Made by a program: the position numbers and the translations under genes. Shown piece after piece: positions 26,547-45,456 of a stretch of DNA of 64,000 nt. A model generated the notes under the pieces. It made no database searches. It had not been told where the DNA came from and worked only from the letters and a program-made list of their open reading frames with translations. This DNA comes from an uncultured Acidobacteriota bacterium (GTDB lineage Bacteria > Acidobacteriota > Vicinamibacteria > Vicinamibacterales > 2-12-FULL-66-21). The stretch's first letter is position 1, and every line of letters starts with the position of its first letter. The DNA lies in the NCBI GenBank assembly GCA_963755695.1, contig CAVWLB010000008.1:798109-862108 (forward strand), written 5' to 3'.

Positions 26547-29500
26547 AACCACTGCCGCGGATTGCACGGATCACACGGATTGGCATGCTCGCCATTGCGA
26601 TCGCCGCGGGGTTCGTCTCCGTGCGCGCGCCAGCAGACGGACGCGCAACAGGCCGAGAAAAAGGACGAAAAGAAGTGGGACGTCGCCGCCGATCTCGGCC
26701 CGACCCAGAAGCTGGCGTTCGACACGTCCGAAGGGACGTGGATGAACGTCGACGTCAGCCCCGACGGCCGCGCAGATCGTGTTCGACCTGCTCGGCGACA
26801 TCTACGTGATGCCGATCGGCCGGCAGCGGGAGCGTCGCCGGCGACGCGGATCACCAGCGGGCCCGCCTTCGACATGCAGCCGCGATTCAGTCCCGACGGC
26901 AAGCGCATCGCCTTCTCGCAGCGATCGCGACGGCCTGTGGAACATCTGGACGATCGACGTCGACGGGAAGAACGCGAAGCAGGTCTCGCGAGAGAAGCGC
27001 TGGTTCGTCAACAGCCCGACCTGGTCGCCGACGGCGACTACATCTTCGCGCGGCGTCACTTCGTCGCGGAGCGCTCGCTCGGCGCCGGCGAGATCTGGAT
27101 GTTCCACGCGAGCGGGTCCGACGGCCTGCAGGTCACCGAGAAGAACGGCTTCCAGAAGGACGCCGGCGAGCCGGCGGTTTCGCCCGACGGCCGCTACCTC
27201 TATTACAGCAAGGACGTCACGCCGGGCCAGACGTTCGAATACAACAAGGATCCGAACGGCACGATCTACGCGATCATCCGCCGCGATCTGACGACCGGCC
27301 GCGAGCGCCGCGTCGTCAGCGTCCAGGGCGGATCGGTCACGCCGCGTCCGTCGCCCGACGGCAAGTCGCTCGCCTACGTCCGCCGCGTGCGCCTCAGAGC
27401 CAGCTGTTCGTCCGCGATCTCGAGACGCGGCCGCGACCGCGCGTTCTTCGAGCACCTCGACAAGGATCTGCAGGAAGCGTGGGCGATCCACGGCCTGTAT
27501 CCGCAGTACGCCTGGACGCCGGACGGCAAGGTCGATCGTCATCTGGGGCGAGGGAAAGATCTGGCGCGTCGACGTCGCGACCGGCGAAGGGCGCGCGATT
27601 CCGTTCACCGCGCACGTCGAGCAGACGGTCAACGACGCGGTGCGCTTCCCGCAGAAGGTCTACACGCCGGAGTTCCCGGTGAAGATGCTGCGCGACGTCG
27701 CGATCTCGCCCGACGGCAAGCGCGTCGTCTACAGCGCGCTCGGCCAGCTCTATGTCACGGCGCTCTCGCCGGCGCGGCGACGCCGAAGCGCGGTCACCAG
27801 CGGACGACCGCGTTCGAGTTCGTTCCGTCGTGGTCGGCGACGGGCAGTGGATCGTCTACACGACGTGGACCGACGCGGACTACGGCCGCGTGCGCGTCGT
27901 CAGGCCCGACGGCACCGGCGGCCGCGACGTCGTCACGCACGCCGGGCCACTACGTCGAGCCGTCGTTCTCGCCCGACGGCAAGATGGATCGTCTTCCGCC
28001 ACGCCGGCGGCGACCCGATCCGCGGCCCGTTCTACGGCGACGAGCCCGGCATCTACGTCGTGCCGACCGACGGTCGGCGGCGCCGCGGCTCGTGCGCGAG
28101 GGCGGCACCGAGCCGAGTTCGATCACACCGGCACGCGCATCTACGTCAGCGACTCGCGCAACGAGCAAGTCCGTGCTGCTCAGCGTCGGCGTCGGCGACC
28201 GGCGTCGCCGCTGCCGGGCCGCGACGAGATCGTGCACTTCCAGTCCGAGAACGCCGACGCAGATCGTGCCGTCGCCCGACGGCAAGTGGGTGGCGTTCGC
28301 AGAGCGGTGGCACGCGTACGTCGCGCCGTTCCCGCACACCGGCCGCCCGGTCGACTTGGGCCCGACGATCGAGGGCTATCCGGTCGCGCGCATCTCGCGC
28401 GACGCCGGGTTCTACCTGCACTGGTCCGGCGACAGCCGCAGGTCTACTGGTCGCTCGGGCCCGGAGCTCTTCACGCGCGATCTCGACGCACACGTTCACG
28501 TTCCTCGACAGCGGCCTCGCGAAGCCCGACGAGCCCGAGGCCAAGGGCGTCCACATCGGCTTCACCGCGAAGAGCGACGTGCCGGACGGCGTCGATCGCG
28601 CTCGTCGGCGCGCGGGTCATCACGATGGCGGCGGCCGGCCCGATCAGGACGCCGGCGTGATCGAGAACGGCACGGTCGTCGTCGAGGGCAACCGCATCAC
28701 CGCGGTCGGGCCGTCATCGTCGGTCAGTGTGCCGGCGCGGCGCGAAGCGCATCGACGTCGCAGGCAAGACGATCATGCCGGGCATCGTCGACGTGCACGG
28801 GCACGTCGGCGGCGAAGGGGACGGCATCCTCGCGCAGATCGAGCTGGCCGCTTGCGGCGAACCTCGCGTTCGGCGTGACGACGTCGCACGATCCGTCGAA
28901 CGACACCGAGACCGTGTTCACGAACGCCGAGCTGATTCGCGCCGGGCGCGAAGCTCGGGCCGCGGCTGTTCTCGACCGGCACGATCCTCTACGGCGCCGA
29001 GACGCCGTTCAAGGCGGTCGATCGAGAACTACGACGATGCGCTGTCGCACTGCGGCGGCAGAAGGCGGTGGGCGCGTTCCGCGTCAAGAGCTACAACCAG
29101 CAGCGCCGCGACGCGCGGCAGATGATCATCAAGGCCGCGCGCGAGCTGCAGATGAGGTCGTGCCCGAGGGCGGGCTCGCTGCTCTACATGAACGAGACGA
29201 TGATCCTCGACGGCCACACCGAGCGTCGAGCACTCGCTGCCGGTGCCGCAGCTCTACAAGGACGTCGTCACGCTGTTCGCGAAGAGCAAGACCGGCTACA
29301 CGCCGACGCTGATCGTCGGCTACGGCGGCCTGTCCGGCGAGTACTACTGGTATCAGCACACCAACGTCTGGGAGAACGAGCGGCTGCTGACGTTCACGCC
29401 GCGCGAGATCGTCGACGCGCGCTCGCGCCGCCGGACTGATGGCGCCGGACGACGACTTCAATCACGTGCTGATTGCCAAGGGCGCCAAGCAGGTGCTCGA

Positions 29501-29845
29501 TGCCGGCGGCTCGGTGCAGCTCGGCGCGCACGGCCAGCTGCAGGGGCTCGGCGCGCACTGGGAGCTGTGGATGCTGCAGCAGGGCGGCATGACGCAATCT
29601 GGAGGCGATCCGGTGCGCGACGATCAACGGTGCGCGCGTGCTCGGCCTCGACGGCGACATCGGGTCGCTCGAGAAAGGCAAGCTCGCCGATCTCATCGTC
29701 CTCGATCGCAATCCGCTCGAGAACATCCGCAACACGCGAGTCGATCGCGATGGTGATGCTGAACGGCCGGCTCTACGACGCGAAGACGCTCAACGAGATC
29801 GGCAACCATCCCCGCGACCGCCTGAAGTTCTGGTGGGAGCGGTGA
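26543..29845 (+). pseudogene. Protein of ~1100 aa fusing a TolB-like PD40 beta-propeller to a metal-dependent amidohydrolase. Readable only by about 10 frame switches
   Basis: Signal peptide. More than 8 PD40 blades (SPDG[KR] recurrent). The C-terminal half carries amidohydrolase motifs (IMPGIVDVHGHVGG..., ...DGHTGVEH..., DLIVLDRNPLENI). The start ATG overlaps the glycosylase stop as ATGA. Confidence 0.7.
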
Positions 29846-29854
29846 CGGCCCTCT

Positions 29855-29952
29855 GGGGTCAGACCCCGCATCCCCGGGGTCTGACCCCACAGCGCGAGCC
29901 CGGGGTCTGACCCCACCTCTCACACTCGAGCCGTTTTTCGGGGTCTGACCCC
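29855..29952. repeat. Array of four 13-bp GC-rich palindromes GGGGTC(T/A)GACCCC
   Basis: Copies at 29855, 29876, 29902 and 29940, spaced 21, 26 and 38 bp apart. Copies 2-4 share a CC(C)GGGGTCTGACCCCA(C/A)C unit. A T5 run precedes copy 4. Confidence 0.8.
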
Positions 29953-29999
29953 AACCTCTGCTCAGAATTTGGCCTGATTCGTTGCGACTTGCGTCGATT

Positions 30000-30032
30000 T
30001 TGCAATTTGTAATATGATATTACAGATTGCAA
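30000..30032. promoter_or_regulatory. AT-rich 16+1+16 inverted repeat (candidate operator) overlapping the regulator start codon
   Basis: TTGCAATTTGTAATAT g ATATTACAGATTGCAA with one mismatch. Its last base is the A of the ATG at 30032. Confidence 0.6.
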
Positions 30033-30453
30033 TGACTCTCGCCCAGAAGCTCCGGCAGCTGCGGCAGCTCGAAGGAGAGCTTCGCGGACTCGGCCGCGAG
30101 CTGACCCAGTCGGAGCTGGTCCGCGCGATCCGCACGGAGCTGGGCGAGACGCATCAGCCAGTCCTATCTCTCGCTCATCGAAAAGGGCGCGCCGCAAGCA
30201 CCTGTCGCACGAATCGCGGCAGCTGCTCGCGCGCTTCTTCAAGGTCCATCCCGGGCTATCTCGTCAGCGACCCGCCGGGATTCCACACCGAGCTCGCGTC
30301 GGAGATCGCGCTCGGTCGAAACCGCGCTCGACCGCTGGCTGGGCGACGGCGCCGCCCGCTTCGCGCACGACCCGGCGCTCGGCCGCGGCGCTCGAGCGCG
30401 TCGCGACGCACGCCGAGTCGCGGCGCTGCCTGGTGCTGCTCGGCGAAATGATG
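30032..30453 (+). CDS. XRE-family HTH transcriptional regulator (ClgR-like position ahead of pspA), apparently frameshifted
   Basis: MTLAQKLRQLRQLEGELRGLGRELTQSELVRAI...ISQSYLSLIEKG HTH. The reading frame changes near 30150. The 3' end is uncertain. Confidence 0.5.
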
Positions 30454-30510
30454 TCGATGCCGGGTCTGATCGATCGCCTGTCGGAAACGCTCGTGCCGGA
30501 GGAGCGGACA

Positions 30511-31110
30511 ATGAACTGGCCGGCGATCTTTCTCGGCTGCTTCGTCATCGGGTTCGTGCTCAGCGTGCTGTCGTTCGCGCTTCGGCGTCGATCGACGCGC
30601 ACGTGCACTTCCCGTGGGAGACATCACGTCGCATGCCGGCGCGTCTTCACAGCGCCGGCACACGGGCACCGCCGTCGGTCCGATCAACTTCGCGACGATG
30701 ACCGCGTTTCTCGCCTGGTTCGGCGGCACCGGCTACCTGCTGACGTCGCAGTTCCGCTGGCTCGTGCTGCCCGCCGTCGGACTGTCGCATCGTGCTCGGG
30801 TTGTGCGGCGCGGCCGTCGTGTTCTGGATCATGGCGCAGGTGCTGTGGTCGCCGAACGAGAACATGCAGAGCGCCGACTACCACATGGTCGGCGTGCTCG
30901 GCCGCCTGAGCCAGCCGATCCGCGAAGGCGGCATCGGCGAGCTGATCTACTCGCACGGCGGCGCGCGCAAGTCGTGCGGCGCGCGCAGCGCCGACGGACG
31001 CGCGATCGAGAAGGGCGCGGAAGTCGTGGTGACGGGCTACGAACGCGGGCATCGCCGTACGGTGCGAGCGACTGGGACGCGATCTGCGGCGGACGAGCCT
31101 GTAGGACGGG
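30511..31110 (+). pseudogene. NfeD-like (YqiJ/YuaF) membrane protein with C-terminal OB-fold, frameshifted
   Basis: TM N-terminus MNWPAIFLGCFVIGFVLSVL. C-terminus GELIYSHGGARKSCGARSADGRAIEKGAEVVVTGYERG. GGAGG RBS. Confidence 0.6.
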
Positions 31111-31142
31111 TCGGTGAGCCCTTCCGGCATGGAGGCGGAACT

Positions 31143-32617
31143 ATGGGTCTTCAGACCATGAGCGTCGGATTCTGGGTCGTTGTCGGGCTGATGGTGCTGG
31201 CCGTGGCGCTGCTCGGATCGTTCCTCGCGTCGCTCTATCGGAAGGCCGGCCCGCACGAAGCGCTGATCGTCTACGGCTTCCGCGGCACGCGCATCGTGAA
31301 AGGGCACGGCACCGTGATCTTTCCGATGGTCGAGTCGTCGCCACGAGCTGTCGCTGGAGCTGATGTCGTTCGACGTCGCGCCCGAAGCAGGACCTCTACA
31401 CCAAGCAGGGCGTGGCGGTCACGGTCGAAGCGGTCGCGCAGATCAAGGTGAAGTCCGACATGCGAGTCGATCGAGACCGCGGCCGAGCAGTTCCTGACCA
31501 AGACGCCGGAGCAGCGCGAGGGCCTGATCCGGCTGGTGATGGAAGGCCACCTGCGCGGCATCATCGGCCAGCTCACGGTCGAGCAGATCGTGAAGGAGCC
31601 GGAGATGGTCGCCGACCGCATGCGCGCCACCTGCGCCGACGACATGAACAAGATGGGCCTCGAGGTGGTCTCGTTCACGATCAAGGAAGTCCGCGACAAG
31701 AACGAGTACATCGTCAACATGGGCCGGCCCGACGTGGCGCGCATCAAGCGCGACGCCGACGTCGCCGCGGCCGAGGCCGAGCGCGACACCGCGATCAAGC
31801 GCGCCGAGGCGACGCGCGAGTCGGCGATCGCCAAGGCGCAGGCCGACCAGGAGCGCGTGCTGGCCGAGACGCTGTCGCAGGCCAAGCAGGCCGAGGCGCA
31901 GCGCGACCTCGAGATCAAGAAGGCGAAGTACGTCGAGACCGTCAAGAAGCAGCAGGCGCAGGCCGACAAGGCCTACGAGATCCAGACCAACATCATGCAG
32001 CAGCAGGTCGTCGCCGAGGCGGTGCGCGTGCAGCAGGTCGAGCGCGAGCAGCAGATCAAGGTGCAGGAAGCGGAGATCCTGCGCCGCGAGAAGGAGCTGA
32101 TCGCGACCGTGCTGAAGCAGGCCGAGATCGAGCGCCAGCGCATCGCGATGCTGGCCGAGGCCGAGAAGCAGCCGGCTGTCGATCGAGGCCGAAGGCCAGC
32201 GCTGCCGCGATCCGCGCTGCAGGGCGAGGCGGAGGCCGACATCATCTTCAAGAAGGGCGACGCCGAAGCGCGGGCGATGAACGTGAAGGCCGAGGCGTTC
32301 CAGGAGTACAACCAGGCGGCGGTCATCGACAAGCTGCTCACGTCGCTGCCGGAGATCGTCGCGGGCGCTCGCCAGCCCGCTGACCAAGGTGGACAAGATC
32401 ACGATCGTGTCCACCGGCAACGGCGACATCGACCGGCATGCACAAGATCACCGGCGACATGACCGAAATCGCGGCGCAGGTGCCGGCGCTGTTCGAGGCG
32501 CTGTCGGGCATGCCGATGGCGGACCTGCTGTCGAAGGTGAGGAAGATCGGCGACAAGGCGCCCGCCCGGAGCGGCAGGAGCGGAGCGAGCGCGGTCGCGG
32601 AGCTGCCTGGCTCGAGC
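31143..32617 (+). pseudogene. Flotillin-like SPFH/band-7 protein (YqiK/FloA-like), frameshifted
   Basis: TM N-terminus. SPFH core (GLIRLVMEGHLRGIIGQLTVEQIVKEPEMVA...). A long Ala/Glu/Gln-rich coiled coil. Multiple frame switches. Confidence 0.7.
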
Positions 32618-32639
32618 GAGGACGTAAGACAGGAGTACC

Positions 32640-33309
32640 ATGGCAGTACTCGAACGCGTCGCCACGCTGGTCCGCGCGAACCTGAACGACCTGATCGATC
32701 GCGCGGAAGATCCGGAGAAGATGATCAAGCAGGTGATCCTCGACATGGAGAACCAGCTGCTGCAGGTGAAGACGCAGGTGGCGATCTCGATGGCCGACCA
32801 GCACCTGCTGCAGAAGAAGCAGAACGGAGCACGAGGACAAGGCGGCCGAGTGGATGCGCAAGGCGGAGCTGGCCGTCGACAAGCAGCAGGACGACCTCGC
32901 GCGCGCGGCGCTCGAGCGCTACCAGAGCTTCACCAAGCTGGCCGAGAGCTTACACGCAGCAGGTCGAGGACCAGAGGCAGCAGGTCGACACGCTGCGCAA
33001 GGCGCTCGCGCAGCTCGATCAGAAGCTGGGCGAGGCGCGGGCGAAGAGCGACCTGCTGCTCGCGCAGCATCGCCGGGCGCGCGCGCTCGAAAAGGCGAAC
33101 GACGCGCAGCTCGTCGTGGGCGGACGCGGCCCGGCCGCCGGCTTCGACCGGATGGAGCGGAAGGTCCAGCGCGCGAGGCCGTCAGCCAGGCCAAGTCCGA
33201 GCTGGTCGCCGACGATGTGGATCGCCGGTTCGAGGCGATGGAGAAGGACGACGAAGTGGGCCGTCTGCTCGACGCGCTCAAGGCTCGTCGCGGCGCCTCT
33301 CCGCAGTAG
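32640..33309 (+). pseudogene. pspA: PspA/IM30 (phage-shock protein A family), frameshifted
   Basis: MAVLERVATLVRANLNDLIDRAEDPEKMIKQVILDMENQLLQVK is the PspA N-terminus. The rest is recovered in 2 other frames. Confidence 0.7.
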
Positions 33310-33360
33310 CCTGGGCGCGGCCGACGTGAGGCGAAGGGCGGACCGGAGTAAGTCCGCCTT

Positions 33361-33389
33361 TTGCCTTTGGCCGAGCCGGTCGCTATAAT
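33361..33389 (+). promoter_or_regulatory. Near-consensus sigma70 promoter for tRNA-Gln
   Basis: TTGCCT, 17-nt spacer, TATAAT. The tRNA 5' end is 20 nt downstream. Confidence 0.65.
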
Positions 33390-33408
33390 CGAAGTTTCCG
33401 CCAGCCGT

Positions 33409-33482
33409 TGGGAGGTCGTTCAACGGTAGGACACGTGGCTCTGGACCACGTTATCGGGGTTCGAATCCCTGCCTCCCAGCCA
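33409..33482 (+). tRNA. tRNA-Gln (anticodon CTG)
   Basis: U1-A72 acceptor pair and G73 discriminator, both Gln hallmarks. Anticodon loop CUCUGGA, T-loop TTCGAAT, encoded CCA. Confidence 0.85.
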
Positions 33483-33833
33483 ATCCAGCAACTAACGCCG
33501 AAACAGTCGCTTAACTCGTCGGTCTCGTAGCGAAAAGCCAGGCCAAACCGGAAAGTCTGACGGCGGATACACGTTCCCGGGCTCTGGCGCTCGCGAGCTG
33601 CCCCCGAAAGACCGGCCATCTTCCATCAGTTACCCGCAAAGACCGCGTCGTGTTGGGATCACACGTGAGACACGTTGAGACACGTAAGCCAACCCGCGGC
33701 CCGTTGTACAGCGTGATTTCAAGTTGGCCATCCGTGTGGTGTGACATTCGAATCCTTACAACAGCTTGAACGGAGCGAGCAAGCCGATGTTGAAAATCGA
33801 CGTGGCGGTGGTGATGGTCTGGCGACGCGTGAT

Positions 33834-35255
33834 TCAGCCGGCTCTGCGCGCCGCCGGCAGCCTGCCGCGCGCGACCGCCCGTACCAGCGCCTGGTGATCC
33901 GCTTCGATCTGATCGGCATAGGCGCGCGCAAACTGACGCATCGCCTCATCCACGCGCCTCGATGATCCGACATAGCCAGCAATCATCGATGCGCCGCTCG
34001 TCCGCGCATGTCCCTTGGCGAGCAGATGACCCAGGATCCGCGCGTAATCCGTCAGCGCTCCGGTTTTGAGCGTGTCGAACGGGATTGCGCCCTTCATGTC
34101 GCGGAACTGGCGGACGTAGTACGACCGGTTCTCAATCGTCGTCCACCCCAGGAGCGGATCGCTCACGGTCTGCACCGCCTGCTGGTACTCGACGACTCGC
34201 TGTCCCTGATGGGCGTGCCGCGGCACGTCACCGTGCACGTAGGGAGCCACGACCGACCGGCGCGCCTCTTTTAACTGCAGAAAGAGGACGTCCTCAGGCG
34301 TGCTGCCCTCCAGCAGTGCGACGTAGCTTCGCAGTCCGACGCTGCTGACACCGACGACTTTATGAGCGATGTCGACCAGCGTGTAGCCGCCAACAATGCG
34401 ATGCCAATGAGGCGCGAGGGTGTTCAGATAGTCGTCGATCGCAGCGGCAATCCGCTGGAACGTGGCCCCTGGAACCCGAGTGATCAGCGGCGGCTTGTCG
34501 ACGATGTGACGGGAGCCGCTCAGTTGGGTGGTGAATCGCGGCAGCGCGCGGTCGCTCGTTCGAGTGCGCGCGAGCCGCGCGGCGCGAGCGATCGTCGCGC
34601 GTAACGACTTGCCGGTCACCGTGCTGTGCAGGAGTTGAACGTCCATGCGCTGAAACGAACGCGACAGCAGCGGCTGAATCGCCAGCAGGCGCACCGATTG
34701 CCGATAGGCGGCCACGCACGACATCACGGCGTCATCGCACTGCGCATCCCGCATGCCACTCTGTCGTCCAGCCACATAGAAGCTGGTGACCAGCCGCCGC
34801 AGGTCCCATTCCCAGGGACCGGGATGCGCCTCGTCGAAGTCGTTGAGGTCCAAGACCAGGTCGCGTTCTGGCGAGGCGTAAAAGCCGAAGTTTCCGAGGT
34901 GAGCATCCCCGCAGATGACCGGGGTGATGCCTGTCGCGGGGAGGCGCGCCAAATCCTCGGCCATCACGTTGGCGCCGCCACGCAGAAATCCGTACGGTGA
35001 GGAGACCATTCGCGCGATCCGGATCGGAATGAGGGAGGCGACCCGTCCGACGTGGAGCCGCTCGATCAGGGCGATCGGATCGGGCCTGTTGTCAGCGAGC
35101 CGCCACACACCGAGCGAGGTTCGTGAGACTTTCTGCCGCAGGTGGCGACCGAGCTTGAAGCGCTTGACTCGCGAAACCGGTCGAACGCGGACGGACCGAT
35201 AGGCTCGGCTGTCGTCACCCGGCAGCGCTGAATATGTCGTCAGCTTCGTCGCCAT
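33834..35255 (-). CDS. DUF2252-family protein
   Basis: 473 aa. SPYGFLRGGANVMAEDLA...GDAHLGNFG matches the DUF2252 N-terminal signature. Confidence 0.7.
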   Translation of the reverse strand: MATKLTTYSALPGDDSRAYRSVRVRPVSRVKRFKLGRHLRQKVSRTSLGVWRLADNRPDPIALIERLHVGRVASLIPIRIARMVSSPYGFLRGGANVMAEDLARLPATGITPVICGDAHLGNFGFYASPERDLVLDLNDFDEAHPGPWEWDLRRLVTSFYVAGRQSGMRDAQCDDAVMSCVAAYRQSVRLLAIQPLLSRSFQRMDVQLLHSTVTGKSLRATIARAARLARTRTSDRALPRFTTQLSGSRHIVDKPPLITRVPGATFQRIAAAIDDYLNTLAPHWHRIVGGYTLVDIAHKVVGVSSVGLRSYVALLEGSTPEDVLFLQLKEARRSVVAPYVHGDVPRHAHQGQRVVEYQQAVQTVSDPLLGWTTIENRSYYVRQFRDMKGAIPFDTLKTGALTDYARILGHLLAKGHARTSGASMIAGYVGSSRRVDEAMRQFARAYADQIEADHQALVRAVARGRLPAARRAG

Positions 35256-35507
35256 GTCGGAGGTCTGGTCCTCCCGGGCCAGTCAGATTCGTCGCCTGGA
35301 CTGAATTCTTGCCTGAGTTGTGCGCGAATTTAGCCGATTGCCGGCCACGAAGTTCACTCCCGAGTGGCTCCCGACGGCAACGAGACCCGAAACGATCCGC
35401 TCGGCACGAGAATCCATCTTCGATCTCCTGATCCACGCCAACCGACGCTCCCTTATCGGTGGCCGCTGAGGCAGTTCAAGGTGACCGAAATGCTTACACC
35501 CAGCTGC

Positions 35508-35888
35508 CTACTTGTCAGCGATGAGCGAGAGATGCGTCGAAACACATCTCCACTGACCACCCTGCCGGACGAACACACACGATACTCGTTCGACTACGTG
35601 GAACGCTTGCCCATGGAACTTTCCTCCAGATACGCCTCGCGCGATGACGACCGCTGTGTCGCCGTAGGCGCGAACCTGCATGTCGTGGGATTCCATGACG
35701 TCGTGAGTTAGTACCCCGGACTTCACTAGACCAAGAAACATCGCCTTGTCACCGACGCTGCCGTCGGGGCCAATAATCGTCCAATCGTCGGCCATGTACC
35801 GGCCAATCGCTTCTGGATCGTTCTCGACCATCGCCCGGTCCCACTCACAGGTGACGCTCGTCAGTTCTCCTTCAACCTTCTCGCTCAA
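35508..35888 (-). CDS. NTF2-like/SnoaL-like (DUF4440-type) small protein
   Basis: 126 aa with a ketosteroid-isomerase-like pattern (DWTIIGPDG...VSTHLS). Confidence 0.55.
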   Translation of the reverse strand: MSEKVEGELTSVTCEWDRAMVENDPEAIGRYMADDWTIIGPDGSVGDKAMFLGLVKSGVLTHDVMESHDMQVRAYGDTAVVIARGVSGGKFHGQAFHVVERVSCVFVRQGGQWRCVSTHLSLIADK

Positions 35889-36879
35889 GGTCGCTCCCTC
35901 GTGTTGATGCTTCGACCGCTCTATGCCGCCGAACTAGTAGTAGGCTGACCAGTCTAAATCCGCAGTTCCCGCGAAGCTCGCAGCATAACGGGGAATCGCC
36001 TCCGCGTTGAAGGCTCGCAAATTGCTGAACGGTCGATCGTTCCAGCCATCAGTGCGGAATCTCTCGCTGAATTAGGCCGACCTGCATAACACGAGGTTCC
36101 CCCGCAGCGACCCCCGGGCTCGCGCGTCAATCCTTGGTCGGTCCGGGAATGTCGCCGAGTGCTTAGAATGCGCCGACGACACGTTCGCTATCGCACGACT
36201 CGCGGCGACGAACTGTGGCGGTTCATGCCGGTCAGGGTTTTGTTACAGGCTCTTAAGGCCGGCCGACATGAACTTCCGCTGTTCGTGGGGCCGATCGCAT
36301 TCAGGTCGGGCCAATGGGTGCTTCTCCATTCCAAGATAAACACGACGACGGATCGGAAAATCTTCAACCCTGCGACGTGACGCGATTCGGTTGAGGCGCC
36401 AGTACCTGCTGAACTGAGCCCCCCGCGGCGATTATTCCGTCACTTCGCCGGTCAGCCAGCGCAGTCCAAGTCGCATTGGACATTCTGGATGCTTACCGCG
36501 CTGTGCAGTCATGACTGAACCACCGACGGCGCCCCCGTTCTTCGTAGTGCTGTGAATGTTCCGGAGATCTCGCGCGATCCGACAGGTTACTAGGCGAGCG
36601 TGAGATTCAGGTTCTCGATGGCTTCGGCGATTCCGGCAGGGCTCTTGTAGCCGACCGTGACGCAATCGACATCATCATTTTCCGGGACCACCGAAACACG
36701 CTTGACGAGCTGATCGATAGCGTCCACTTTCTCGAACCTTGACAGCGGACCTATCCAAACTTGATTGTGCTGGGGCCAAAGACCGGACTCTCGCGGTCCA
36801 TCGAATAGACGCGAACGCCGCCGCCCCGCTCGTGATTTGGATGGGACGGCACAACCCGTAATGCGTCACCGACACACAC

Positions 36880-37241
36880 CGGTCTTGACCAGCCACTACT
36901 GGCTGCAGACCGTGCCGCAAACGCATGCGCTGGTCGCGCTGGATATCGCCGATCCAGAGCATCCACGCGAGGTTTCGAGCGTGGTATTCGGTGACGATGA
37001 GGAGCCACACTGGCTGGCGATCGATCCTTCGGGCCGGCGACTCGTCCTGAATTCCGCCGGCTGCACGAAGAGTAACCGGCTGTTCGTCATCAACTTCGAT
37101 CCCGCCAGCGGTGCTCTATCCATCGATGATCGCTTCCGTGATATCGGCAGCACACGTCCGGGAATCGATCTGACCGGCAAGACCCGGCCACACGGTTTCT
37201 CGGGCAAGCCGGTGCCACACGGGACCGTGTTCTCGAGATGA
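36880..37241 (+). pseudogene. C-terminal fragment of a 7-bladed beta-propeller lactonase-like protein
   Basis: HWLAIDPSGRRLVLNSAG...RLFVINFDPASGALSI blades. No N-terminal 200 aa present. Confidence 0.3.
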
Positions 37242-37624
37242 GCAATGCCGAGGCCAACACCCACTCGCGACACGCTGCGCGCGTGCAGGTGCAGAAGCGG
37301 TGTGATGCGGCACTTCGGCCCTATCATCGAGAACTAACTTGCGCGCCGTTCAGGAAGGACGCACTCGACGTGCGGTGCGCCTCTGAGTTCTTCTTATTTC
37401 CTGAGACCGCCTCTCTGTGCGCGAAGCCAAATTCTGGTCCTAGCAGGACTTCCTGCTGGCCCGGACCGGAAAACCGCGCGCTGAGTCAGTGTCACCGCGG
37501 CCACTACCAGCCACCACACTGTTGAACGCGAAGCACTTACGCGAACCCCCCTGGTTCCGCTCTGTAGGGCCACTCCTTGCACGTGTGTGGTGGACTCGAT
37601 TTTCTTCAGAGGTCAAGAATCTAA

Positions 37625-38716
37625 ATGAGAACAATCACTCGCATGGCAGCGTCGCTGGCGCTGCTCGTCACGTTCGCGGCCGCCGGCGCGGCGCAGTCGT
37701 CCAACGGAAACGACTCGGTCGACTACGCGCCGAAGACACAAAATCTAGCAGGCACGTTGCCGTTCGACCGCTCGTACACGCTGGACATCACATCGCCGTC
37801 AAGCCTGAATGACAAGGGCGAAAAGGCCATTGCCGGCGGAATCACCGCGAACCTGCGCGTGAACGTCGACGACTTCCCGGAGGCTTCGAACGAGGCGGCG
37901 GCAGCGGCGCTCGTGACGCTAGACGACCAGTTCATGGTGTTCACCGCTCTCGCGCAGACGCAGCAGACGACGGTCCGCCTCCATGTCACCAGCAGCACCA
38001 TTCCCGGCGATTACGTATTCACCATCCAGGCGGATGGACCGAGCGGAATTGGGTGGGGCAACGCAGGCCACACACTGACCGTCACGGTTTCAGAGCCTGT
38101 GGTGTCCGACAACACTCCACCTGTCGTCGTCATCACGTCGCCAACGGACGGACAGGCGTTCACGTTCTGCAGCACCGGGACCGTCGTACCCGTGACCATT
38201 TCAGCGACTGATCCGGAGACTCTCGTCACATCAGTCTGGGCGAGTGCTAGCAACGTCCCGTTCGCGGTGTCCTTCCCTGGTGCGTCCAACAACGTCGTGG
38301 CCAATGGCAATTTCACAGCTGCAGGAATTGGGTCTTATCCGCTCCAGGCCTGGGCACAGAGCACGGGGGGCACGGGTGAATCAGCGGTGGTCAACATCTC
38401 GGTGAACTATGCCATGTCGTGGCTGCCGCCCCTATCGCTCGGAAAAGTCATCAGCGGCGCGCTCGCCATCAAATTCTCGGCGCGCGATTGCAACGGCGCT
38501 TTCGTCGCCGACAATCGGGTAAGCGTCGAAGTATGGGAGGGTCCCGTCCGCAGATTTGTCGCGACCTTCGGAGACGGAAGTGACGCCGTCCGCATCGACG
38601 AGGTGCAGGGCCAGTACATCGCCAATTTCAAACCGGCATCGGGTGTCCATATTTACACCGTCAAGGTGTTGTTCGGTGGGTTCGAGCAGGCCTCGAAGAG
38701 TTTCACGACCAAGTAG
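37625..38716 (+). CDS. Secreted Thr/Ser/Val-rich hypothetical protein (Ig-like beta-rich)
   Basis: 363 aa with a signal peptide. No recognizable catalytic motif. Confidence 0.55.
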   Translation: MRTITRMAASLALLVTFAAAGAAQSSNGNDSVDYAPKTQNLAGTLPFDRSYTLDITSPSSLNDKGEKAIAGGITANLRVNVDDFPEASNEAAAAALVTLDDQFMVFTALAQTQQTTVRLHVTSSTIPGDYVFTIQADGPSGIGWGNAGHTLTVTVSEPVVSDNTPPVVVITSPTDGQAFTFCSTGTVVPVTISATDPETLVTSVWASASNVPFAVSFPGASNNVVANGNFTAAGIGSYPLQAWAQSTGGTGESAVVNISVNYAMSWLPPLSLGKVISGALAIKFSARDCNGAFVADNRVSVEVWEGPVRRFVATFGDGSDAVRIDEVQGQYIANFKPASGVHIYTVKVLFGGFEQASKSFTTK

Positions 38717-39084
38717 CGTTTTCCGTCGAGCGACCGCCAAGGCGCACGCGACCATCTCGAATGTAAGTGGTCGCGTGCGTTAGCGCCTTCCGAATTCTCC
38801 AGTACCGAAATCCCGCCTTTGACCACGTGCTAGCTCCCCCGCGGCTCGAATCCGGCTTCGATTCACATTCGTGGTAGAACGTCATCTAGCACAGGTACGA
38901 ATGGCGCGTTAGAGATCCGCGTCGAGTTTCCGCTTCATGCCTTCACGCTGTCGCTGGGTCGATGATTCCGAGGCGGGAGTACTCGAGTGGACGGCAGTAA
39001 ACGAACGGGACGACATAACCGCAGGGTGATTCCAGCGAACCAAGTTGTGCACCGTCACCACGTGAGAAACAGGCCCTGCTCCGA

Positions 39085-39107
39085 GTTCGAACGCCTGCCT
39101 CCCAGCC
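39085..39107 (+). repeat. Partial copy of the tRNA-Gln 3' end
   Basis: GTTCGAAcgCCTGCCTCCCAGCC versus tRNA GTTCGAAtcCCTGCCTCCCAGCC. A 14-mer is exact and the flanking TTCGAA matches. Confidence 0.55.
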
Positions 39108-39293
39108 GGCCTTCGCTCGACTTCGCCGAGCTTCGAGCTAGGACTCACTGCCTCATGTGGACCGGCCCAACGTTTCGGGGTAGCTAATCTGACGCTCCCG
39201 GACTGGCAACGCTGGGCGCTTGGCGGTTTCGCCGTTCTCTACAACCCCGTTCCACCGATTCGCATTGGCGAGAAGGCCATCTGAAAGGCCGAC

Positions 39294-40311
39294 TTGGCTT
39301 CCTGGGGGCCACTCGCTGCTCGTGCCGCATGCCGAGGAGCCCTTCAGGAACCGCAGCTCTGGACCTTGACATTCCCGGGCGGAGAGGCTCACCGCCTGAC
39401 CGACGACCTGTCCTGGTACGACCTGGGACTCGACGCCACACCCGACGGCCGCAACGCGGTGTCTATTGTCTCCACGCGCATCTCAAACATCTGGGTCGTG
39501 CCCGTCGAGGATCCGATGCAGGCGCGTCAGGTTTCGGACGGGTTGCCGGTGGCCGAGGCGGCGGAGGTCGCCGACGGCCGGATCCTGGCAGATGACTACG
39601 AGGACCAGCTTCTCGGGTCTTCGCAACTCTGGACGAGCGACCAAAACGGCAGTCAACGCACGCCGTTCACCAGCCTCCGGCACGTCAATGCGTTCATGCG
39701 GTGCGGCAACGTCGTCGTGGCTGTCGTGGACACCCCGGGGCGGCCACCGTGACTTACTTTCGCATCGACGCGGACGGTTCACATGCGGTCCCCCTGACCA
39801 CTGGCGCGTACGGGTTTCCGGCCTGCTCGGATATCGGCGATTACTTCTTTTACTTGGACCAAGACCGGATCCTCCGGGTCCCGATGCGGGCGGTCCCCCT
39901 CGCGAGGTGGGCCATAACCTGTCGGCGGCATTGGCCCATCGGAGTCTCGCCGATGGCACGCGCCTCGCGTACCTGCAACGCCTGCAGGGCCCTGGATCGT
40001 CTGAACGATGGAACGTTGCGGTCGTACGCACGGACGATGGCTCACCCGTCGCGTCGTGGCCGGTTCAGTTGCCGCGTTACCACCCGCGCAGATTCCGGTG
40101 GTCGCCGCAGGGCCTGGTCTGGCAGTTCCTGAGGTCTGACGGTGGTGCCTTCAACGTGTGGGAGCAGCCGATTGCCGGCGGCACCGCGAAGCAGCTGACC
40201 AGATTCACGTCCGGGAGGATCTTCAACTTTTACGAATCGCTCGACGGAAAGAGGCTCGTGATGACGCGCGGGAGCCTCAGCCACGACGTCGTGTTGCTGA
40301 CGTTCAAGTAG
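39294..40311 (+). pseudogene. TolB-like beta-propeller protein fragment, frameshifted (3 frames)
   Basis: Blades QLWTLTFPGGEAHRLTDD..., TYFRIDADGSHAVPLT, NVWEQPIAGGTAKQLTRFTSGRIF..DGKRLV. There is no N-terminal domain and no single frame. Confidence 0.4.
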
Positions 40312-40481
40312 CGGCGGTCGGGGTGTCTGGGACGATTTCCGCAACTGGCTCATGCGTGCGGCTTAGCGAATCAGCTGACGTTCGCGCGATTTTCTCCGCA
40401 CTTCACTCGCCTGGCTTGTGTGAGTCCAAGCGACCAGATGTGCGGAGCCGTTGCACGCTACACCCTGACCTCGACTGCTCC

Positions 40482-42956
40482 TCACGGGCGGCCCAGTTCG
40501 ACCATCACAATCGCGACGCCGAGCGCGCGCGACTCTCCAGGGCGAGGTGTCGAGTGTCCGCTCGTGATGCGGATGCGCACGTCACGGCCGCGCAGGCGCT
40601 CGGGGGAGCACGCGCTCAACGGGAACGAACGGTCCCATGCGCCTGTGTCAACAGTGCCGCTGAACAGCGTGCACTCATTCACGGCGATCGTCAGGGGCGT
40701 CTGCGGCGTCGCGAGGTTCGCGATCGCGATCCTGAGCACCGCCTGCGGATCCGGCTGTTCGCGAAGTCTCACTTCGGCATCGCCGTTCGTCCAGCGGAAC
40801 ACACGGTCGCCGAGCGGCTCGCGATCATAGAACCCGGTCAGCGTCACGTCCCAGTTGCGCGCTTCTCCCAGGATGAGGTTCAGGCGCGGCGGTCGCACGC
40901 TCGAGTGGAGCGCCGGGCGCAGCACCACTCTGTCGCCGTGGGTCGTGATCTCGTAGACGTCGATCGTGTTGATGCCGGGGCGGAACAGCGCCGGCCTTAC
41001 GAGGGCCGCCCACGCGCCCGCGGAGGGCAACGGTGCGGGAACTGACTTCGTGGTCGTCGCAATGATCCCGTTGACGGCGATCGCGAGCGGCACCGCGCTG
41101 ACCGCAGCGGCACCGCTGATGCGTCCGGCCACGAGCGCCGGGACGAAATCGTCCGTCGAATCCTCGTGACTGTAACGCCAGGCGTCGAAAAGCTCCAGCC
41201 GCAGGTCGCTCGTCGTGCCGATCGCCCCACCGGCGACCGGCTGATTGTGGAGGGCGCGGAACGGCGCAGCCTTCGGCAGCCAGACGTTGGCGTGTCCCGA
41301 CCCGTCGAAGAGCTCCGCCTTGCGGCCCGCGGCGGCGAGCACCAGCTCCCACAGTGACGCCGGCAGGTGCATCGTCTGCGTGGCGTCGGCGAAATACACT
41401 CGCTTCTCCAACGCCGGCGGCGCCTGTCCGACGGCCGACACACCGGCTGTCGCGAACGGCAGCGGTGCATGCAGCAGATCGCTGAGCGTCGCCATGACGT
41501 CGACCGCCTGCACGTTGCGGTCCGACACCTCTCGACCGGTATGATGCGGCGGCTTGATAATCAGCGGTACGGCTGCCATTTCGCCAGCTGTGGCATGGCG
41601 CAGTCCCTTCATCGGCTGCCCCGGCGTGAAGCTCACGCCATGATCGGACGTGACCACAATCAGCGCACGGTCGTAGAGCCCTTCGCGTTTGAGTTGCGCG
41701 ATCAGTTTCGACACGAGAGAGTCGACATAGCCGACCTGCAAGAGGTGACGGCGATATGTCTGAAGCGCGTACCACGGGTCCTCGGCCCACGTGCCTTTCC
41801 GGTCCAGCCCGATCATGTCGTCCGCGGTGCTGAAACGACGCCCGTCGGGAAGATAGACGTACGGCTCGTGCGGGAGCAGCACGTGGGCGAAATACAGCGT
41901 GGGCTGCGGATCGTCGGCGGTGATGCCCTCGATGAAGCGCCCGATGGGCACGCGTCGATCCTGATCGCGCGCCGTCAGCCATCGGCCGAACCAGTCGTTG
42001 CGATGGATGAAATCGCGCCAGTCGTCGGTCAGCCGCGGAAGGCCGCTCTTCATCTCCTCCGGCAGCACGATGCGGGCATAGACGACGGAGATGTCCGAGA
42101 GCATCGAGACCTGGCGCGCCCACCGCGGTTCGATCGGCTCGGGGCAGAGCCGGTCCGGACAGAGATCCGTCACCGACTCCAGCGCCTCGATCTGGTAACG
42201 CGAGCCGAACGCGGTGAACAGGTTGTGCGGATAATCGGACGTGATCGGCAACCTTCGTCGATGGGGATAGCTCCCACTCAGAAGCGCGGGAATCGCGAAC
42301 GACGTGAAGTCCGCGGTGGCCGTGGCGTTTCGGTACCAGATCGCGTCGGACGCCAGAGCGGTAAACCCGGGAAAATGACGCGCGTCGATGTCGCCATGCG
42401 CATCGAGAATTGACGGCAAGGGAAGCTGATCGAACACGACGAAGACGACCGGCGTGTCGCCTGGGACCGCAGCCGCCGCATCCGTTGAGGCATCGGTGGG
42501 GAAGACGAACCGTCGCATCGAGGGACGGAGGAGGAATACCAGCGGAAAGACGAGCGCGGCAGTTGACAGGACCGTCACGAACTGGCGGACCGGCGCGTAC
42601 TTCCAATAGACCAGACTGCCGAGCACGCCGTGAAGGAGGGACACGGCCAGCGCTTCCGGAGCGCTCACTCCCGCAACGCTCGCAACGAGCGGCAGCACGA
42701 TCAACGCGACGAAAAGCCCGACCAGCGCGATGGTCACGCCATCAGCTGCGCGCGCGGTGACGCGCCCGACGCCCCACACCAGGAGGCCCAGCAACAGCGG
42801 CACTGCGGCGGACAGCCAGAGTACCAGCAGCAGAATGTCGCCGGCGTCGGCACGGTGAGCGACGAAGAACTCGCCGTTGCGCCGTAACACGTCGTACAGA
42901 GGCTGGGCCAGCGCGAACCCCGCGAGCGTCGAGATGTGGAGCAGCCGGCGCTTCAT
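40482..42956 (-). CDS. Membrane-anchored sulfatase-superfamily transferase (LtaS/OpgB phosphoglycerol- or phosphoethanolamine-transferase-like)
   Basis: 824 aa. About 5 N-terminal TM helices. Periplasmic alkaline-phosphatase-like domain with LIVVTSDHGVSF. The antisense long ORFs are Arg-rich noise. Confidence 0.7.
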   Translation of the reverse strand: MKRRLLHISTLAGFALAQPLYDVLRRNGEFFVAHRADAGDILLLVLWLSAAVPLLLGLLVWGVGRVTARAADGVTIALVGLFVALIVLPLVASVAGVSAPEALAVSLLHGVLGSLVYWKYAPVRQFVTVLSTAALVFPLVFLLRPSMRRFVFPTDASTDAAAAVPGDTPVVFVVFDQLPLPSILDAHGDIDARHFPGFTALASDAIWYRNATATADFTSFAIPALLSGSYPHRRRLPITSDYPHNLFTAFGSRYQIEALESVTDLCPDRLCPEPIEPRWARQVSMLSDISVVYARIVLPEEMKSGLPRLTDDWRDFIHRNDWFGRWLTARDQDRRVPIGRFIEGITADDPQPTLYFAHVLLPHEPYVYLPDGRRFSTADDMIGLDRKGTWAEDPWYALQTYRRHLLQVGYVDSLVSKLIAQLKREGLYDRALIVVTSDHGVSFTPGQPMKGLRHATAGEMAAVPLIIKPPHHTGREVSDRNVQAVDVMATLSDLLHAPLPFATAGVSAVGQAPPALEKRVYFADATQTMHLPASLWELVLAAAGRKAELFDGSGHANVWLPKAAPFRALHNQPVAGGAIGTTSDLRLELFDAWRYSHEDSTDDFVPALVAGRISGAAAVSAVPLAIAVNGIIATTTKSVPAPLPSAGAWAALVRPALFRPGINTIDVYEITTHGDRVVLRPALHSSVRPPRLNLILGEARNWDVTLTGFYDREPLGDRVFRWTNGDAEVRLREQPDPQAVLRIAIANLATPQTPLTIAVNECTLFSGTVDTGAWDRSFPLSACSPERLRGRDVRIRITSGHSTPRPGESRALGVAIVMVELGRP

Positions 42957-43264
42957 GCGCGGCGCACGCCGTGATACAGCACCCGCGTACCGTCCCGGAG
43001 TGGTTTGCGAGCGACGATGCAGAAGTGCGTCGCCAACGTCGGTTCGAAGTGTGCCTGTTCGTAGTCGGTGTACTGATCGTCCTTGCTCAACAGCAGCCGG
43101 CGGACCATCGCGTCCTGCTTCGAGACGAATTCGATCACGACGCCTCCGCCAAGACCTGCAATCGAGTTCACGAACTCGACGCGTGGGATGTTGCCGGCAA
43201 TCACCACGTGATGGATGAGCGCCACGTCCATCGCGTTCGCCAACGGTCTATTCGATCGGGACAA
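42953..43264 (-). CDS. Small VOC/glyoxalase-like protein, translationally coupled to the downstream transferase
   Basis: 103 aa. ATGA overlap with the 40482..42956 gene. Confidence 0.4.
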   Translation of the reverse strand: MSRSNRPLANAMDVALIHHVVIAGNIPRVEFVNSIAGLGGGVVIEFVSKQDAMVRRLLLSKDDQYTDYEQAHFEPTLATHFCIVARKPLRDGTRVLYHGVRRA

Positions 43265-43639
43265 CGCGCCGACGCTCGATCAAGCTACGCTGCATTGGCA
43301 AGATATCTCGCATCCGTTACTGGGTACATGTGCGCGCGTGAGCGCAATGTAGATGTTGTTGGCCGGACAGCGACACAACAACGGCGTTATGAACCTGTAC
43401 CGCGCGTGTTTCAGGGCCGACGCGGATCATCTGTTCAGGATCGTGAAGGAGCTGGCTCCTTGACCGGTAAAACCGGCGTCCCCGACCAAAATACTACCCG
43501 CTATTGCCAACAATAGGTTCTGCGGTCTTCTACCGGCATCGCGGCCACCGCTGGTCCATTGAGGCTCGGTGCACTGCGAAACAGCTCTGCTCGATCGAGA
43601 TCCCATTTCTTCGAAGTCGCTGCCATTGGCGCTGCAGTC

Positions 43640-45060: not shown

Positions 45061-45069
45061 GAAAATCTC

Positions 45070-45456
45070 TCATGCCGGGCTGCTCGATGGAGCTGGGAGC
45101 AGTTCGACGCGATAGCCGAGGCTTCGGAGTTCGCGGATCATCTTGCGCGCGCGCACCTTCTTCGCCTCGGCGCTGACGGCCGGCCCGCGTTCTTCGTAGC
45201 GCACGCGCTGGTGCAGGATCTTCCAGATCAATCGACACAGCCGGTGGGTGATGGCGCCGATGGCCTGGGCATGGCCGAGGCGGGGGACGAGCCGGCGATA
45301 CACGATGGCGAAGATCGTGCCCTTGGCCTTCACGGCGGCATTGGCGGCCTGATTGAGGACGCGTCGCATCTGGCGATTGCCTTTCGGACAGCGGTGACTG
45401 GCTGGTGTGCCGGGTTTTTTCACGGCGGCGTATTTGATTGAGGCCTGGGGCCGCAA
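45070..45456 (-). mobile_element. IS110-family transposase C-terminal fragment
   Basis: GNRQMRRVLNQAANAAVKAKGTIFAIVYRRL...AIGAITHRLCRLIWKIL matches the IS110 C-terminus. No N-terminal catalytic domain. Confidence 0.5.

What the first reader, a model, noticed from the sequence alone, without database searches (positions are those of the whole stretch)
33361..39107. tRNA-Gln(CTG) with near-consensus promoter, followed by a 5.6-kb island-like segment ending in a partial copy of the tRNA 3' end
tRNA-Gln (U1-A72, G73) has a TTGCCT-17-TATAAT promoter. At 39085-39107 a 23-nt imperfect copy of its T-arm/acceptor 3' end recurs (14-mer exact). This is the classic attL/attR signature of integration at a tRNA 3' end. 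The intervening segment is interspersed with AT-richer non-coding stretches. It carries a DUF2252 protein, an NTF2-like protein, a lactonase-propeller fragment and a secreted Thr/Ser-rich protein. No integrase is present, so the segment may be an old, stabilised insertion. The gene just beyond the partial copy (39294-40311) is an N-terminally truncated, frameshifted propeller fragment.
Basis: seen in the sequence. Interest (0 to 1): 0.65.

Follow-up and report, generated by a model that had tools for sequence, protein, structure and literature searches.

The report
Decayed integrase-less island at tRNA-Gln
A 5.6-kb stretch next to a glutamine tRNA gene in an uncultured soil Acidobacterium is the worn-down remnant of a mobile element that once inserted into the end of that tRNA gene; this is a common kind of genomic scar.

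Summary
tRNA-Gln(CTG) lies at 33409-33482 behind a TTGCCT-17-TATAAT promoter-like site. Its 3' end recurs as a direct repeat at 39080-39107 (24/28, 14-mer exact); shuffled sequence gives no such match, and the copy is not a second tRNA.

The integration reading is supported by three comparisons with 80 metagenomic contigs carrying the same tRNA.
1. The 34 nt right of the copy (39109-39142) match, in the same register, the sequence directly following the intact tRNA in three relatives. This is an empty-site-like junction.
2. About 100 nt left of the copy match the inner flank of equivalent partial copies in two other contigs, so the element's right arm is shared.
3. About 10 relatives have a tyrosine integrase gene abutting this tRNA, and 16 carry partial tRNA 3'-end copies.

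The window's segment has no integrase or remnant of one. It is 58% coding and contains a 5'-truncated gene, so it is decayed and probably mosaic. The gene beyond the copy lacks residues 1-372 of 715. Its frameshifts are probably sequencing errors, because gltX, flotillin and PspA are frameshifted too. Composition is only weakly deviant. This is an ordinary member of a known kind, of low interest.

The parts
33361..33389 (+). Sigma-70-type promoter-like site TTGCCT-17-TATAAT, 19 nt upstream of the tRNA
   Evidence: 10/12 matches; 0.1 expected. The TATAAT and the downstream 25 nt are 93-97% conserved in about 13 relatives.
33409..33482 (+). tRNA-Gln(CTG), intact, with encoded CCA. It forms the attL side of the insertion.
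33454..33481 (+). Repeat copy 1: T-arm and acceptor 3' strand of the tRNA. It contains the 14-nt exact core CCTGCCTCCCAGCC (33468-33481).
33483..39079 (.). Inserted segment of 5597 nt. It is 58% coding, GC 0.609, has no integrase, and is probably a mosaic of element remnants.
   Evidence: No relative shares this content downstream of the tRNA.
33834..35255 (-). DUF2252 protein gene (cargo)
   Evidence: Pfam PF10009, E=7e-127. 72.8% nt identity over 1166 nt to DUF2252 genes on Caballeronia megaplasmids.
35508..35888 (-). DUF4440/SnoaL-like (NTF2-fold) protein gene (cargo)
36876..37241 (+). 5'-truncated gene remnant: the C-terminal 121 aa of a conserved protein family of at least 274 aa with no Pfam match. 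An internal breakpoint lies at about 36878.
   Evidence: Five other contigs keep the upstream coding sequence that the window lacks.
37625..38716 (+). 363-aa ORF, Ig-like (weak Big_7 hit) with a hydrophobic N-terminus (cargo)
38987..39079 (+). Element-side right arm (P-arm-like). It includes GTGGACGGCAGTAAACGA (38987-39004) and CACCACGTGAGAAACAGGC (39056-39074), both shared with L091 and L102.
39080..39107 (+). Repeat copy 2 (attR): a partial, non-functional copy of the tRNA 3' end, 24/28 identical
39108..39142 (+). Native-type 3' flank of tRNA-Gln (B' side). 39109-39142 match the sequence directly after the intact tRNA in L107, L139 and L142 at 88-91%, in the same register.
39287..40311 (+). 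3' part (residues 373-715) of a 715-aa winged-helix/PD40 propeller regulator gene. It is 5'-truncated and has about 3 frameshifts, which are probably sequencing errors.

Best explanation
The segment 33483-39079 is the decayed remnant of one or more integrative elements. A tyrosine recombinase inserted them by site-specific recombination into the 3' end of tRNA-Gln(CTG).

The element carried its own copy of the tRNA 3' end. Integration therefore rebuilt a working tRNA (attL, 33409-33482). The original 3' end and its native downstream flank were pushed 5.6 kb away (attR, 39080-39107, followed by 39108-39142). Strand exchange would have occurred inside the 14-nt identical core CCTGCCTCCCAGCC.

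The integrase gene sits directly 3' of this tRNA, on the opposite strand, in relatives. Here it has since been lost, and internal deletions or rearrangements left gene fragments and 42% non-coding DNA. The segment can no longer move on its own. It now simply carries a few accessory genes (DUF2252, DUF4440, an Ig-like ORF).

Shown: the repeat, both flank homologies, integrases and partial copies at the same tRNA in relatives, absence of an integrase here, and the truncated gene. Inferred: the recombination event itself, the crossover position, the loss of the integrase by deletion, and the element's donor.
For: 1. The repeat is real and non-random and is not a tRNA.
2. Outer flank: window 39109-39142 matches positions +2..+34 after the intact tRNA-Gln in L142 and L107 (91%) and L139 (88%), with related flanks in L088, L123, L161, L156 and L098. 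All start at the same nucleotide after ...CCAGCC.
3. Thirty-three of 80 relatives share the upstream context gltX-KGG protein-tRNA-Gln. At that orthologous site the downstream side varies. It is the native flank in L139 and L142. It is an integrase-bearing element in L086, L135 and L143. It is an islet bounded by a partial tRNA copy in L084, L094, L108, L133, L138 and L158.
4. Inner flank: window 38920-39079 aligns with the DNA just left of the partial copies in L091 (z=12.6) and L102 (z=7.9). Seven other partial copies score at null level.
5. PF00589 integrases abut the tRNA in L106 and L086. Local phmmer hits to integrase queries mark similar ORFs next to the tRNA in L096, L132, L135, L143, L145, L148, L157 and L162, and right after internal partial copies in L094 and L133.
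6. Islets in relatives carry typical accessory cargo: RES toxin with a Schlafen-like helicase, beta-lactamase with ParD, an ECF sigma factor.
7. Decay: no integrase remnant, 58% coding, and a gene truncated at 36878.
8. PspA-tRNA-Gln is conserved in L109, which has a different sequence after the tRNA.
Against: - No relative has both of the window's flanks (PspA-tRNA joined directly to 39108 onward), so the empty site is reconstructed from two sets of contigs.
- The native flank belongs to a repeated ~120-150-nt structured family in relatives and matches for only 34 nt.
- The element's left end (33483 onward) has no detectable similarity to the left ends in L091, L102 or integrase-bearing relatives.
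- GC3 of the cargo genes is host-like.
- The closest relative with DNA, L204 (91% nt), carries the 36931-37234 homologue in a different context that leads to the homologue of window 51961. The window's 37.2-51.9 kb is absent there. The att copy therefore does not separate a foreign block from a stable core.
- The DNA right of the copy also has a truncated gene and IS21/IS110 fragments.
Confidence: 0.8

Rival explanations
1. Composite origin. The segment is not one element but what is left of two or more elements that integrated in tandem at the tRNA (accretion). Deletions then removed the internal att site(s) and the integrase(s). Only the right arm and attR belong to the family seen in L091 and L102. 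This is a variant of the best explanation, not an alternative to integration.
For: The right arm is shared with L091 and L102, but the left end is not. An internal breakpoint truncates a gene at 36878. Tandem arrays with two or three partial copies exist in L084, L102, L118 and L158. A JGI contig with a 94%-identical fragment gene appears to share the middle gene order (128 aa on the minus strand, the fragment, then 357 aa) with different left neighbours (no DNA available).
Against: No internal att copy remains in the window. The JGI gene order could not be checked at sequence level.
Confidence: 0.45
2. A still-mobilisable non-autonomous cassette (CIME-like). The segment keeps usable attL and attR sites. 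It can be excised or transferred when a related integrase or element is supplied in trans or integrates next to it.
For: All three segments bounded by this class of right arm (window, L091, L102) lack an integrase and carry unrelated cargo. The 14-nt core is intact, and the arm motif GTGGACGGNAGTRAAYGA is conserved.
Against: There are only three examples. attR differs from the tRNA at 4 of 28 positions. The left arm is not conserved. There are no circular-junction or empty-site reads, no intact integrase in the 64-kb window (only a C-terminal fragment at about 8565-8685), and no match in viral contigs.
Confidence: 0.12
3. Non-integrative origin. The partial copy is a leftover of a local duplication or rearrangement of the tRNA-Gln region, or part of a repeat element that happens to carry a tRNA-like end. 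The DNA between the copies is ordinary variable chromosome.
For: The flank after the copy belongs to a repeated structured family in relatives. The whole 33-52 kb region is rearranged between close relatives. The cargo's codon composition is host-like.
Against: Repeat units in relatives (L123, L139, L142, L088) do not carry the tRNA core. The inner flank of the copy is homologous to the inner flanks of partial copies at independent loci, which a local duplication would not produce. Integrases occupy the same site in relatives.
Confidence: 0.06
4. Assembly artefact. The contig is error-prone (many frameshifts), and the segment could be a chimeric join.
For: Frameshifts occur in gltX, flotillin, PspA and the PD40 fragment.
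Against: A 28-nt imperfect repeat is too short to cause a misjoin in a long-read assembly. The junction sequences on both sides have independent homologues in other contigs. The indel errors are local, not structural.
Confidence: 0.03

Closest known systems
tRNA-linked genomic islands and integrative elements inserted by tyrosine integrases at the 3' end of a tRNA gene (for example the Klebsiella asparagine tDNA hot spots, PMC4891358)
   Same: An intact tRNA lies at one end and a direct repeat of its 3' part at the other. The native flank is displaced. Accessory cargo is present. The same tRNA is occupied by different elements in different genomes, and integrases lie next to the tRNA in relatives.
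   Different: There is no integrase, excisionase or transfer gene here. The segment is only 5.6 kb, 42% non-coding and has an internal truncated gene. The host is an uncultured Vicinamibacterales-like Acidobacterium, where such islands are little described.
[quoted passage not shown]
   Same: It is bounded by att sites, lacks integration and transfer genes, and sits at the 3' end of a tRNA gene where tandem accretion is seen in relatives.
   Different: Descent from an ICE or IME is not shown, because no conjugation or mobilisation gene remnants are present. attR has diverged at 4 of 28 positions. Mobilisation is untested.
Defective prophage remnant at a tRNA
   Same: It shares the same att architecture.
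   Different: No phage-like gene is present. The segment has no DNA match in 50,697 phage records, and no attP-like match in IMG/VR apart from a phage-encoded tRNA-Gln gene.

Membership tests
tRNA-integrated genomic island (tyrosine-recombinase type) | Intact tRNA gene at one boundary | tested here: met
   tRNA-Gln(CTG) at 33409-33482.
tRNA-integrated genomic island (tyrosine-recombinase type) | Direct repeat of the tRNA 3' part at the other boundary | tested here: met
   39080-39107 is 24/28 identical with a 14-nt exact core; shuffles give 0 matches.
tRNA-integrated genomic island (tyrosine-recombinase type) | Integrase gene inside the element, usually next to the tRNA | tested here: not met
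   No PF00589 hit among the segment's ORFs. tblastn with 13 integrases from relatives finds only the tRNA overlap.
tRNA-integrated genomic island (tyrosine-recombinase type) | Absent from the orthologous site in relatives (empty site) | tested here: inconclusive
   L107, L139 and L142 join the tRNA directly to the sequence found after the window's copy (34 nt, 88-91%). They have a different upstream context from the window. No contig has both of the window's flanks.
tRNA-integrated genomic island (tyrosine-recombinase type) | Composition differs from the host genome | tested here: inconclusive
   GC is 0.609 against 0.643, in the lowest 2% of windows, but GC3 of the genes is host-like.
tRNA-integrated genomic island (tyrosine-recombinase type) | Element ends (arms) shared with other copies of the element family | tested here: met
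   Met for the right arm only: z=12.6 (L091) and 7.9 (L102). The left end is not shared.
CIME (cis-mobilizable element) | attL and attR retained | tested here: met
   Both are present. attR has diverged at 4 of 28 positions, but the 14-nt core is identical.
CIME (cis-mobilizable element) | No integration or transfer genes | tested here: met
CIME (cis-mobilizable element) | Derived from an ICE or IME, and mobilisable after accretion with an incoming element | not testable with these tools
   No conjugation or relaxase remnants were seen. Tandem arrays exist in relatives, but mobility needs experiments or read-level data.
Second (pseudo-)tRNA gene | tRNA-like sequence or fold extending beyond the 3' 28 nt | tested here: not met
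   ARAGORN and Rfam at E<=1 find nothing at 39030-39107. The T-stem cannot pair. The upstream 46 nt align with element arms, not with the tRNA.
Prophage remnant | Phage structural or replication genes, or similarity to phage genomes | tested here: not met

The most novel reading that the evidence does not exclude
Three segments are bounded by the same conserved ~100-nt right arm plus tRNA-Gln core: the window's 5.6 kb, L091's 2.3 kb and L102's 2.7 kb. All three lack an integrase and carry unrelated cargo. They could be members of a family of non-autonomous cargo cassettes. Such cassettes would be moved in trans by the integrases that target tRNA-Gln in Vicinamibacterales, instead of being independent decay products. 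The ~100-nt mini-inserts flanked by 20-21-nt tRNA-end repeats in nine relatives would then be the minimal form.
Probability: 0.12. Interest if true: 0.5.

Novelty: new member of a known kind. Interest (0 to 1): 0.22.

Why it matters
This is a textbook signature of horizontal gene flow, found here in a poorly studied, uncultured soil lineage (Vicinamibacterales-like Acidobacteriota). Its practical value is limited. It marks tRNA-Gln(CTG) as an integration hot spot in this clade, gives the att core and one arm motif for finding active elements and their integrases, and flags 33-52 kb of this contig as accessory, rearranged DNA. It does not open a new question.

Tried and rejected
- Genome-collection scan with the flotillin fragment. 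Flotillin is too conserved, so 79 of the 80 loci were Terriglobales and none had the tRNA. Only L042 (Vicinamibacterales) was syntenic, over window 22403-33294. Its synteny ends at the PspA stop with no tRNA-Gln, so it gives no empty site.
- Exact look-ups of the window's DUF2252 and sulfatase-like proteins found nothing on record.
- Homologues of the downstream sulfatase-like gene. The 96% relative has no DNA available, and the 63% relative (L081) shares no synteny.
- Metagenome scan for the attR core plus flank junction gave 0 hits.
- Viral-contig scans found only a phage-borne tRNA-Gln in a tRNA array. The right-arm motif gave no hit.
- Plasmid and phage DNA searches with the whole segment matched only the DUF2252 gene (Caballeronia megaplasmids, 72.8%) and no phage.
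- Left-end comparison with relatives showed no significant similarity.
- I briefly suspected that the 364-nt fragment 36879-37242 was a discrete mobile module, because every contig's homology starts at 36879. I rejected this. The other contigs share the upstream coding sequence with each other, and only the window lacks it.
- I rejected reading the frameshifts as pseudogenisation, because essential gltX is frameshifted too.


Full report
**What is in the window**

ARAGORN and Rfam place an intact tRNA-Gln(CTG) at 33409-33482. Its sequence, TGGGAGG...CCTCCCAGCCA, gives U1-A72, G73 and an encoded CCA. A promoter-like site, TTGCCT-17-TATAAT, lies at 33361-33389, where shuffles predict 0.1 sites.

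The repeat finder reports 33454-33481 against 39080-39107 as a 28-nt direct repeat, 24/28 identical, with CCTGCCTCCCAGCC exact. The 23-mer with up to 3 mismatches occurs only in the tRNA, in the copy, and in the similar T-arm of tRNA-Ser. None of 100 shuffles gave a match. Neither Rfam at E<=1 nor ARAGORN finds anything tRNA-like at 39030-39107, and the copy's T-stem cannot pair.

**Content of the segment**

| Coordinates | Strand | Content |
|---|---|---|
| 33834-35255 | - | DUF2252 |
| 35508-35888 | - | DUF4440/SnoaL-like |
| 36876-37241 | + | gene fragment, C-terminal 121 aa |
| 37625-38716 | + | 363-aa ORF, weak Big_7 hit |

- The fragment matches only the C-terminal 121 residues of a conserved family of at least 274 aa that has no Pfam match. 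Five other contigs keep the upstream coding sequence that the window lacks, so there is a breakpoint at about 36878.
- No integrase is present. Pfam is negative, and tblastn with 13 integrases from relatives hits only the tRNA overlap.
- Coding density is 58%.
- GC is 0.609 against 0.643 for the rest of the window, in the lowest 2% of equal-sized windows. GC3 of the genes is 0.76-0.78, as in other genes of the window. The dip comes mainly from the non-coding DNA (GC 0.589), although the DUF4440 gene (0.575) and the Ig-like ORF (0.611) are also below average.
- The DUF2252 gene is 72.8% identical in DNA to genes on Caballeronia megaplasmids. That is high for a cross-phylum comparison.

**Who the host is, and data quality**

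The only syntenic genome contig is a Vicinamibacterales MAG (L042), about 80% nt identical over window 22403-33294. In L042 flotillin (495 aa) and PspA (220 aa) are intact. In the window both are split by frameshifts, as is the essential gltX. The assembly therefore carries indel errors, and frameshifts here are not evidence of pseudogenes.

**Comparative evidence**

A metagenome scan with a 53-nt stretch of the tRNA returned 80 loci.

1. Thirty-three have gltX and a KGG-repeat protein directly upstream of the tRNA. Only L109 has PspA-tRNA as in the window. None shares any downstream content with the window.
2. Sixteen loci carry one to three extra partial copies of the tRNA 3' end, all in direct orientation, about 0.1 to 5.9 kb downstream. 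None is a full tRNA. They fall into classes by how far the identity extends. One class has 44 nt, starting in the anticodon loop; another has about 21 nt; another about 18 nt. A further class, in L091 and L102, shares the window's variant T-arm TCCGAGTTCGAAC.
3. Tyrosine integrases lie directly 3' of the tRNA, on the opposite strand. PF00589 was confirmed for L106 and L086. Local phmmer hits to integrase queries mark similar ORFs in L096, L132, L135, L143, L145, L148, L157 and L162, and right after internal partial copies in L094 and L133.
4. The islets bounded by partial copies carry accessory genes: a Schlafen-like helicase with a RES toxin, a beta-lactamase with ParD, and an ECF sigma factor.

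The tRNA is thus a genuine integration hot spot in this clade.

**The two flanks of the window's copy**

*Right of the copy.* 39109-39142 (GCCTTCGCTCGACTTCGCCGAGCTTCGAGCTAGG) matches positions +2 to +34 after the intact tRNA in L142 and L107 (91%) and L139 (88%). L088, L123, L161, L156 and L098 have related versions. All begin at the same nucleotide after ...CCAGCC. L139 and L142 have the common gltX-KGG upstream context. At that orthologous site they represent the unoccupied state, while other contigs with the same upstream context carry integrases or islets.

*Left of the copy.* 38920-39079 aligns with the DNA just inside the equivalent copies of L091 (z=12.6) and L102 (z=7.9). Seven other partial copies score at the null level. 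The shared blocks are GTGGACGGCAGTAAACGA and CACCACGTGAGAAACAGGC.

This is the pattern expected of attR: element arm, then core, then native flank. The T-loop differences lie on the element side, so the exchange would fall within the 14-nt identical core. That last point is inferred.

**Limits**

- No contig has both of the window's flanks, and a scan for the attR junction found nothing.
- The native flank belongs to a repeated, hairpin-rich family of ~120-150-nt units in relatives. Those units do not carry the tRNA core.
- The left end, from 33483 on, resembles no other element.
- The DNA beyond the copy is not stable core either. 39287-40332 is the 3' 1046 nt of a 715-aa Trans_reg_C/PD40 regulator gene, 92% nt identical to L206, with residues 1-372 missing. 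IS21 and IS110 transposase fragments lie at 43875-44558 and 45070-45456.
- A 91%-identical relative (L204) links its homologue of the fragment gene to the homologue of window 51961 through 9 kb of unrelated genes.

The segment is best seen as one decayed, probably composite unit within a larger tRNA-linked plasticity zone.

**Verdict**

This is an old, integrase-less remnant of site-specific integration at the 3' end of tRNA-Gln. It works like the tRNA-linked genomic islands of better-known bacteria (PMC4891358). It meets the descriptive definition of a CIME, with att sites kept and integration and transfer genes lost (PMC5704250). Descent from a conjugative element and any mobility are untested.

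It is a new member of a known kind and of low interest. The least ordinary possibility is that the three integrase-less segments sharing this right arm are trans-mobilised cassettes. The data do not exclude this, but it rests on three examples.

Noticed in passing
window 23721-25219 (gltX), 30792-32500 (flotillin), 32640-33309 (PspA): Conserved housekeeping genes are broken by several frameshifts each, while their L042 orthologues are intact. The contig looks like an unpolished, indel-prone assembly, so apparent pseudogenes in this window need caution.
   Followed up: partly
window 15412-15506 and 15507-~22300: In relatives L126 and L138, tRNA-Ser(GCT) lies about 80-110 nt upstream of gltX. 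In the window, 8.2 kb separates them. About 6.8 kb of that is low-GC (0.60-0.62) DNA with accessory-looking genes (beta/gamma-crystallin, FAD/ALO oxidase, GH5 cellulase, BBE). This may be a second tRNA-linked insertion. No partial tRNA-Ser copy and no integrase were found.
   Followed up: partly
window ~8565-8685 (ORF 8490-8957, + strand): An isolated C-terminal fragment of a tyrosine recombinase (PF00589 profile positions 122-162, E=3e-8; motif RFHDLRHT...GH) lies 25 kb from the tRNA-Gln island.
   Followed up: partly
window 43875-44558 (+) and 45070-45456 (-): Fragments of an IS21-family and an IS110-family transposase (NCBIfam E about 1e-6, C-terminal parts only) lie in the region beyond the att copy. 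They mark further decay and rearrangement.
   Followed up: partly
window 37242-51960 versus L204 318-9420: A relative about 91% identical in DNA (JGI Ga0491451_0000162) matches window 36931-37234 and 51961-52915. Between these it has 9 kb of unrelated genes (abhydrolase, MacB-like permease, PadR, AHSA1, serine dehydratase) in place of the window's 14.7 kb.
   Followed up: partly
window 25712-33408; relatives L083-L161: In 33 of 80 relatives, tRNA-Gln follows gltX and a KGG-repeat stress protein within about 250 nt. In the window, a 7.7-kb block (HhH-GPD glycosylase-like ... flotillin, PspA) lies between them. L042 has the block but no tRNA after PspA.
   Followed up: partly
L084, L097, L108, L119, L120, L124, L137, L151, L158 (about +95 to +127 nt after the tRNA): Nine relatives have a ~95-125-nt GC-rich, hairpin-containing insert directly after tRNA-Gln that ends in a 20-21-nt copy of the tRNA 3' end (CGAATCCCTGCCTCCCAGCCA). 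These could be miniature att-bounded scars or mini-elements.
   Followed up: partly
L088, L107, L123, L139, L142 (first 100-600 nt after the tRNA): The native flank of tRNA-Gln consists of ~120-150-nt structured repeat units (GCCTTCGCTCG...GCGAAGGC), present in tandem and in inverted orientation, with compensatory changes in a TTCG-loop hairpin. It looks like a REP-like family.
   Followed up: partly
L086 5190-6661, L096, L106 210-1564 (minus strand): The open reading frames of the integrases next to tRNA-Gln continue about 60-100 codons past the catalytic domain and run into the last ~27-58 nt of the tRNA gene on the opposite strand.
   Followed up: no
L133, about +2249 nt after tRNA-Gln: A partial copy of a tRNA-Ser-type 3' end (GTTCGAATCCCTGCCTCACCGCC) lies downstream of tRNA-Gln next to an integrase-like fragment, without a full tRNA-Ser. 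This hints at elements with related att cores for two different tRNAs.
   Followed up: no
window 33655-33690: A short tandem repeat, GAGACACGT-T-GAGACACGT, lies about 180 nt after the tRNA. Several relatives have analogous two-copy 8-10-nt repeats with an 11-12-nt period about 90-110 nt after the tRNA (for example GAGTGACATTTTTGAGTGACA in L138 and CTTGACAAAAACTTGACA in L086). These may be arm-type binding sites. This was not tested.
   Followed up: no
L082 (IMGVR_UViG_3300005805_000113): A viral contig carries an array of 18 tRNA genes. One is a tRNA-Gln(CTG) identical to the window's except in the anticodon stem.
   Followed up: no
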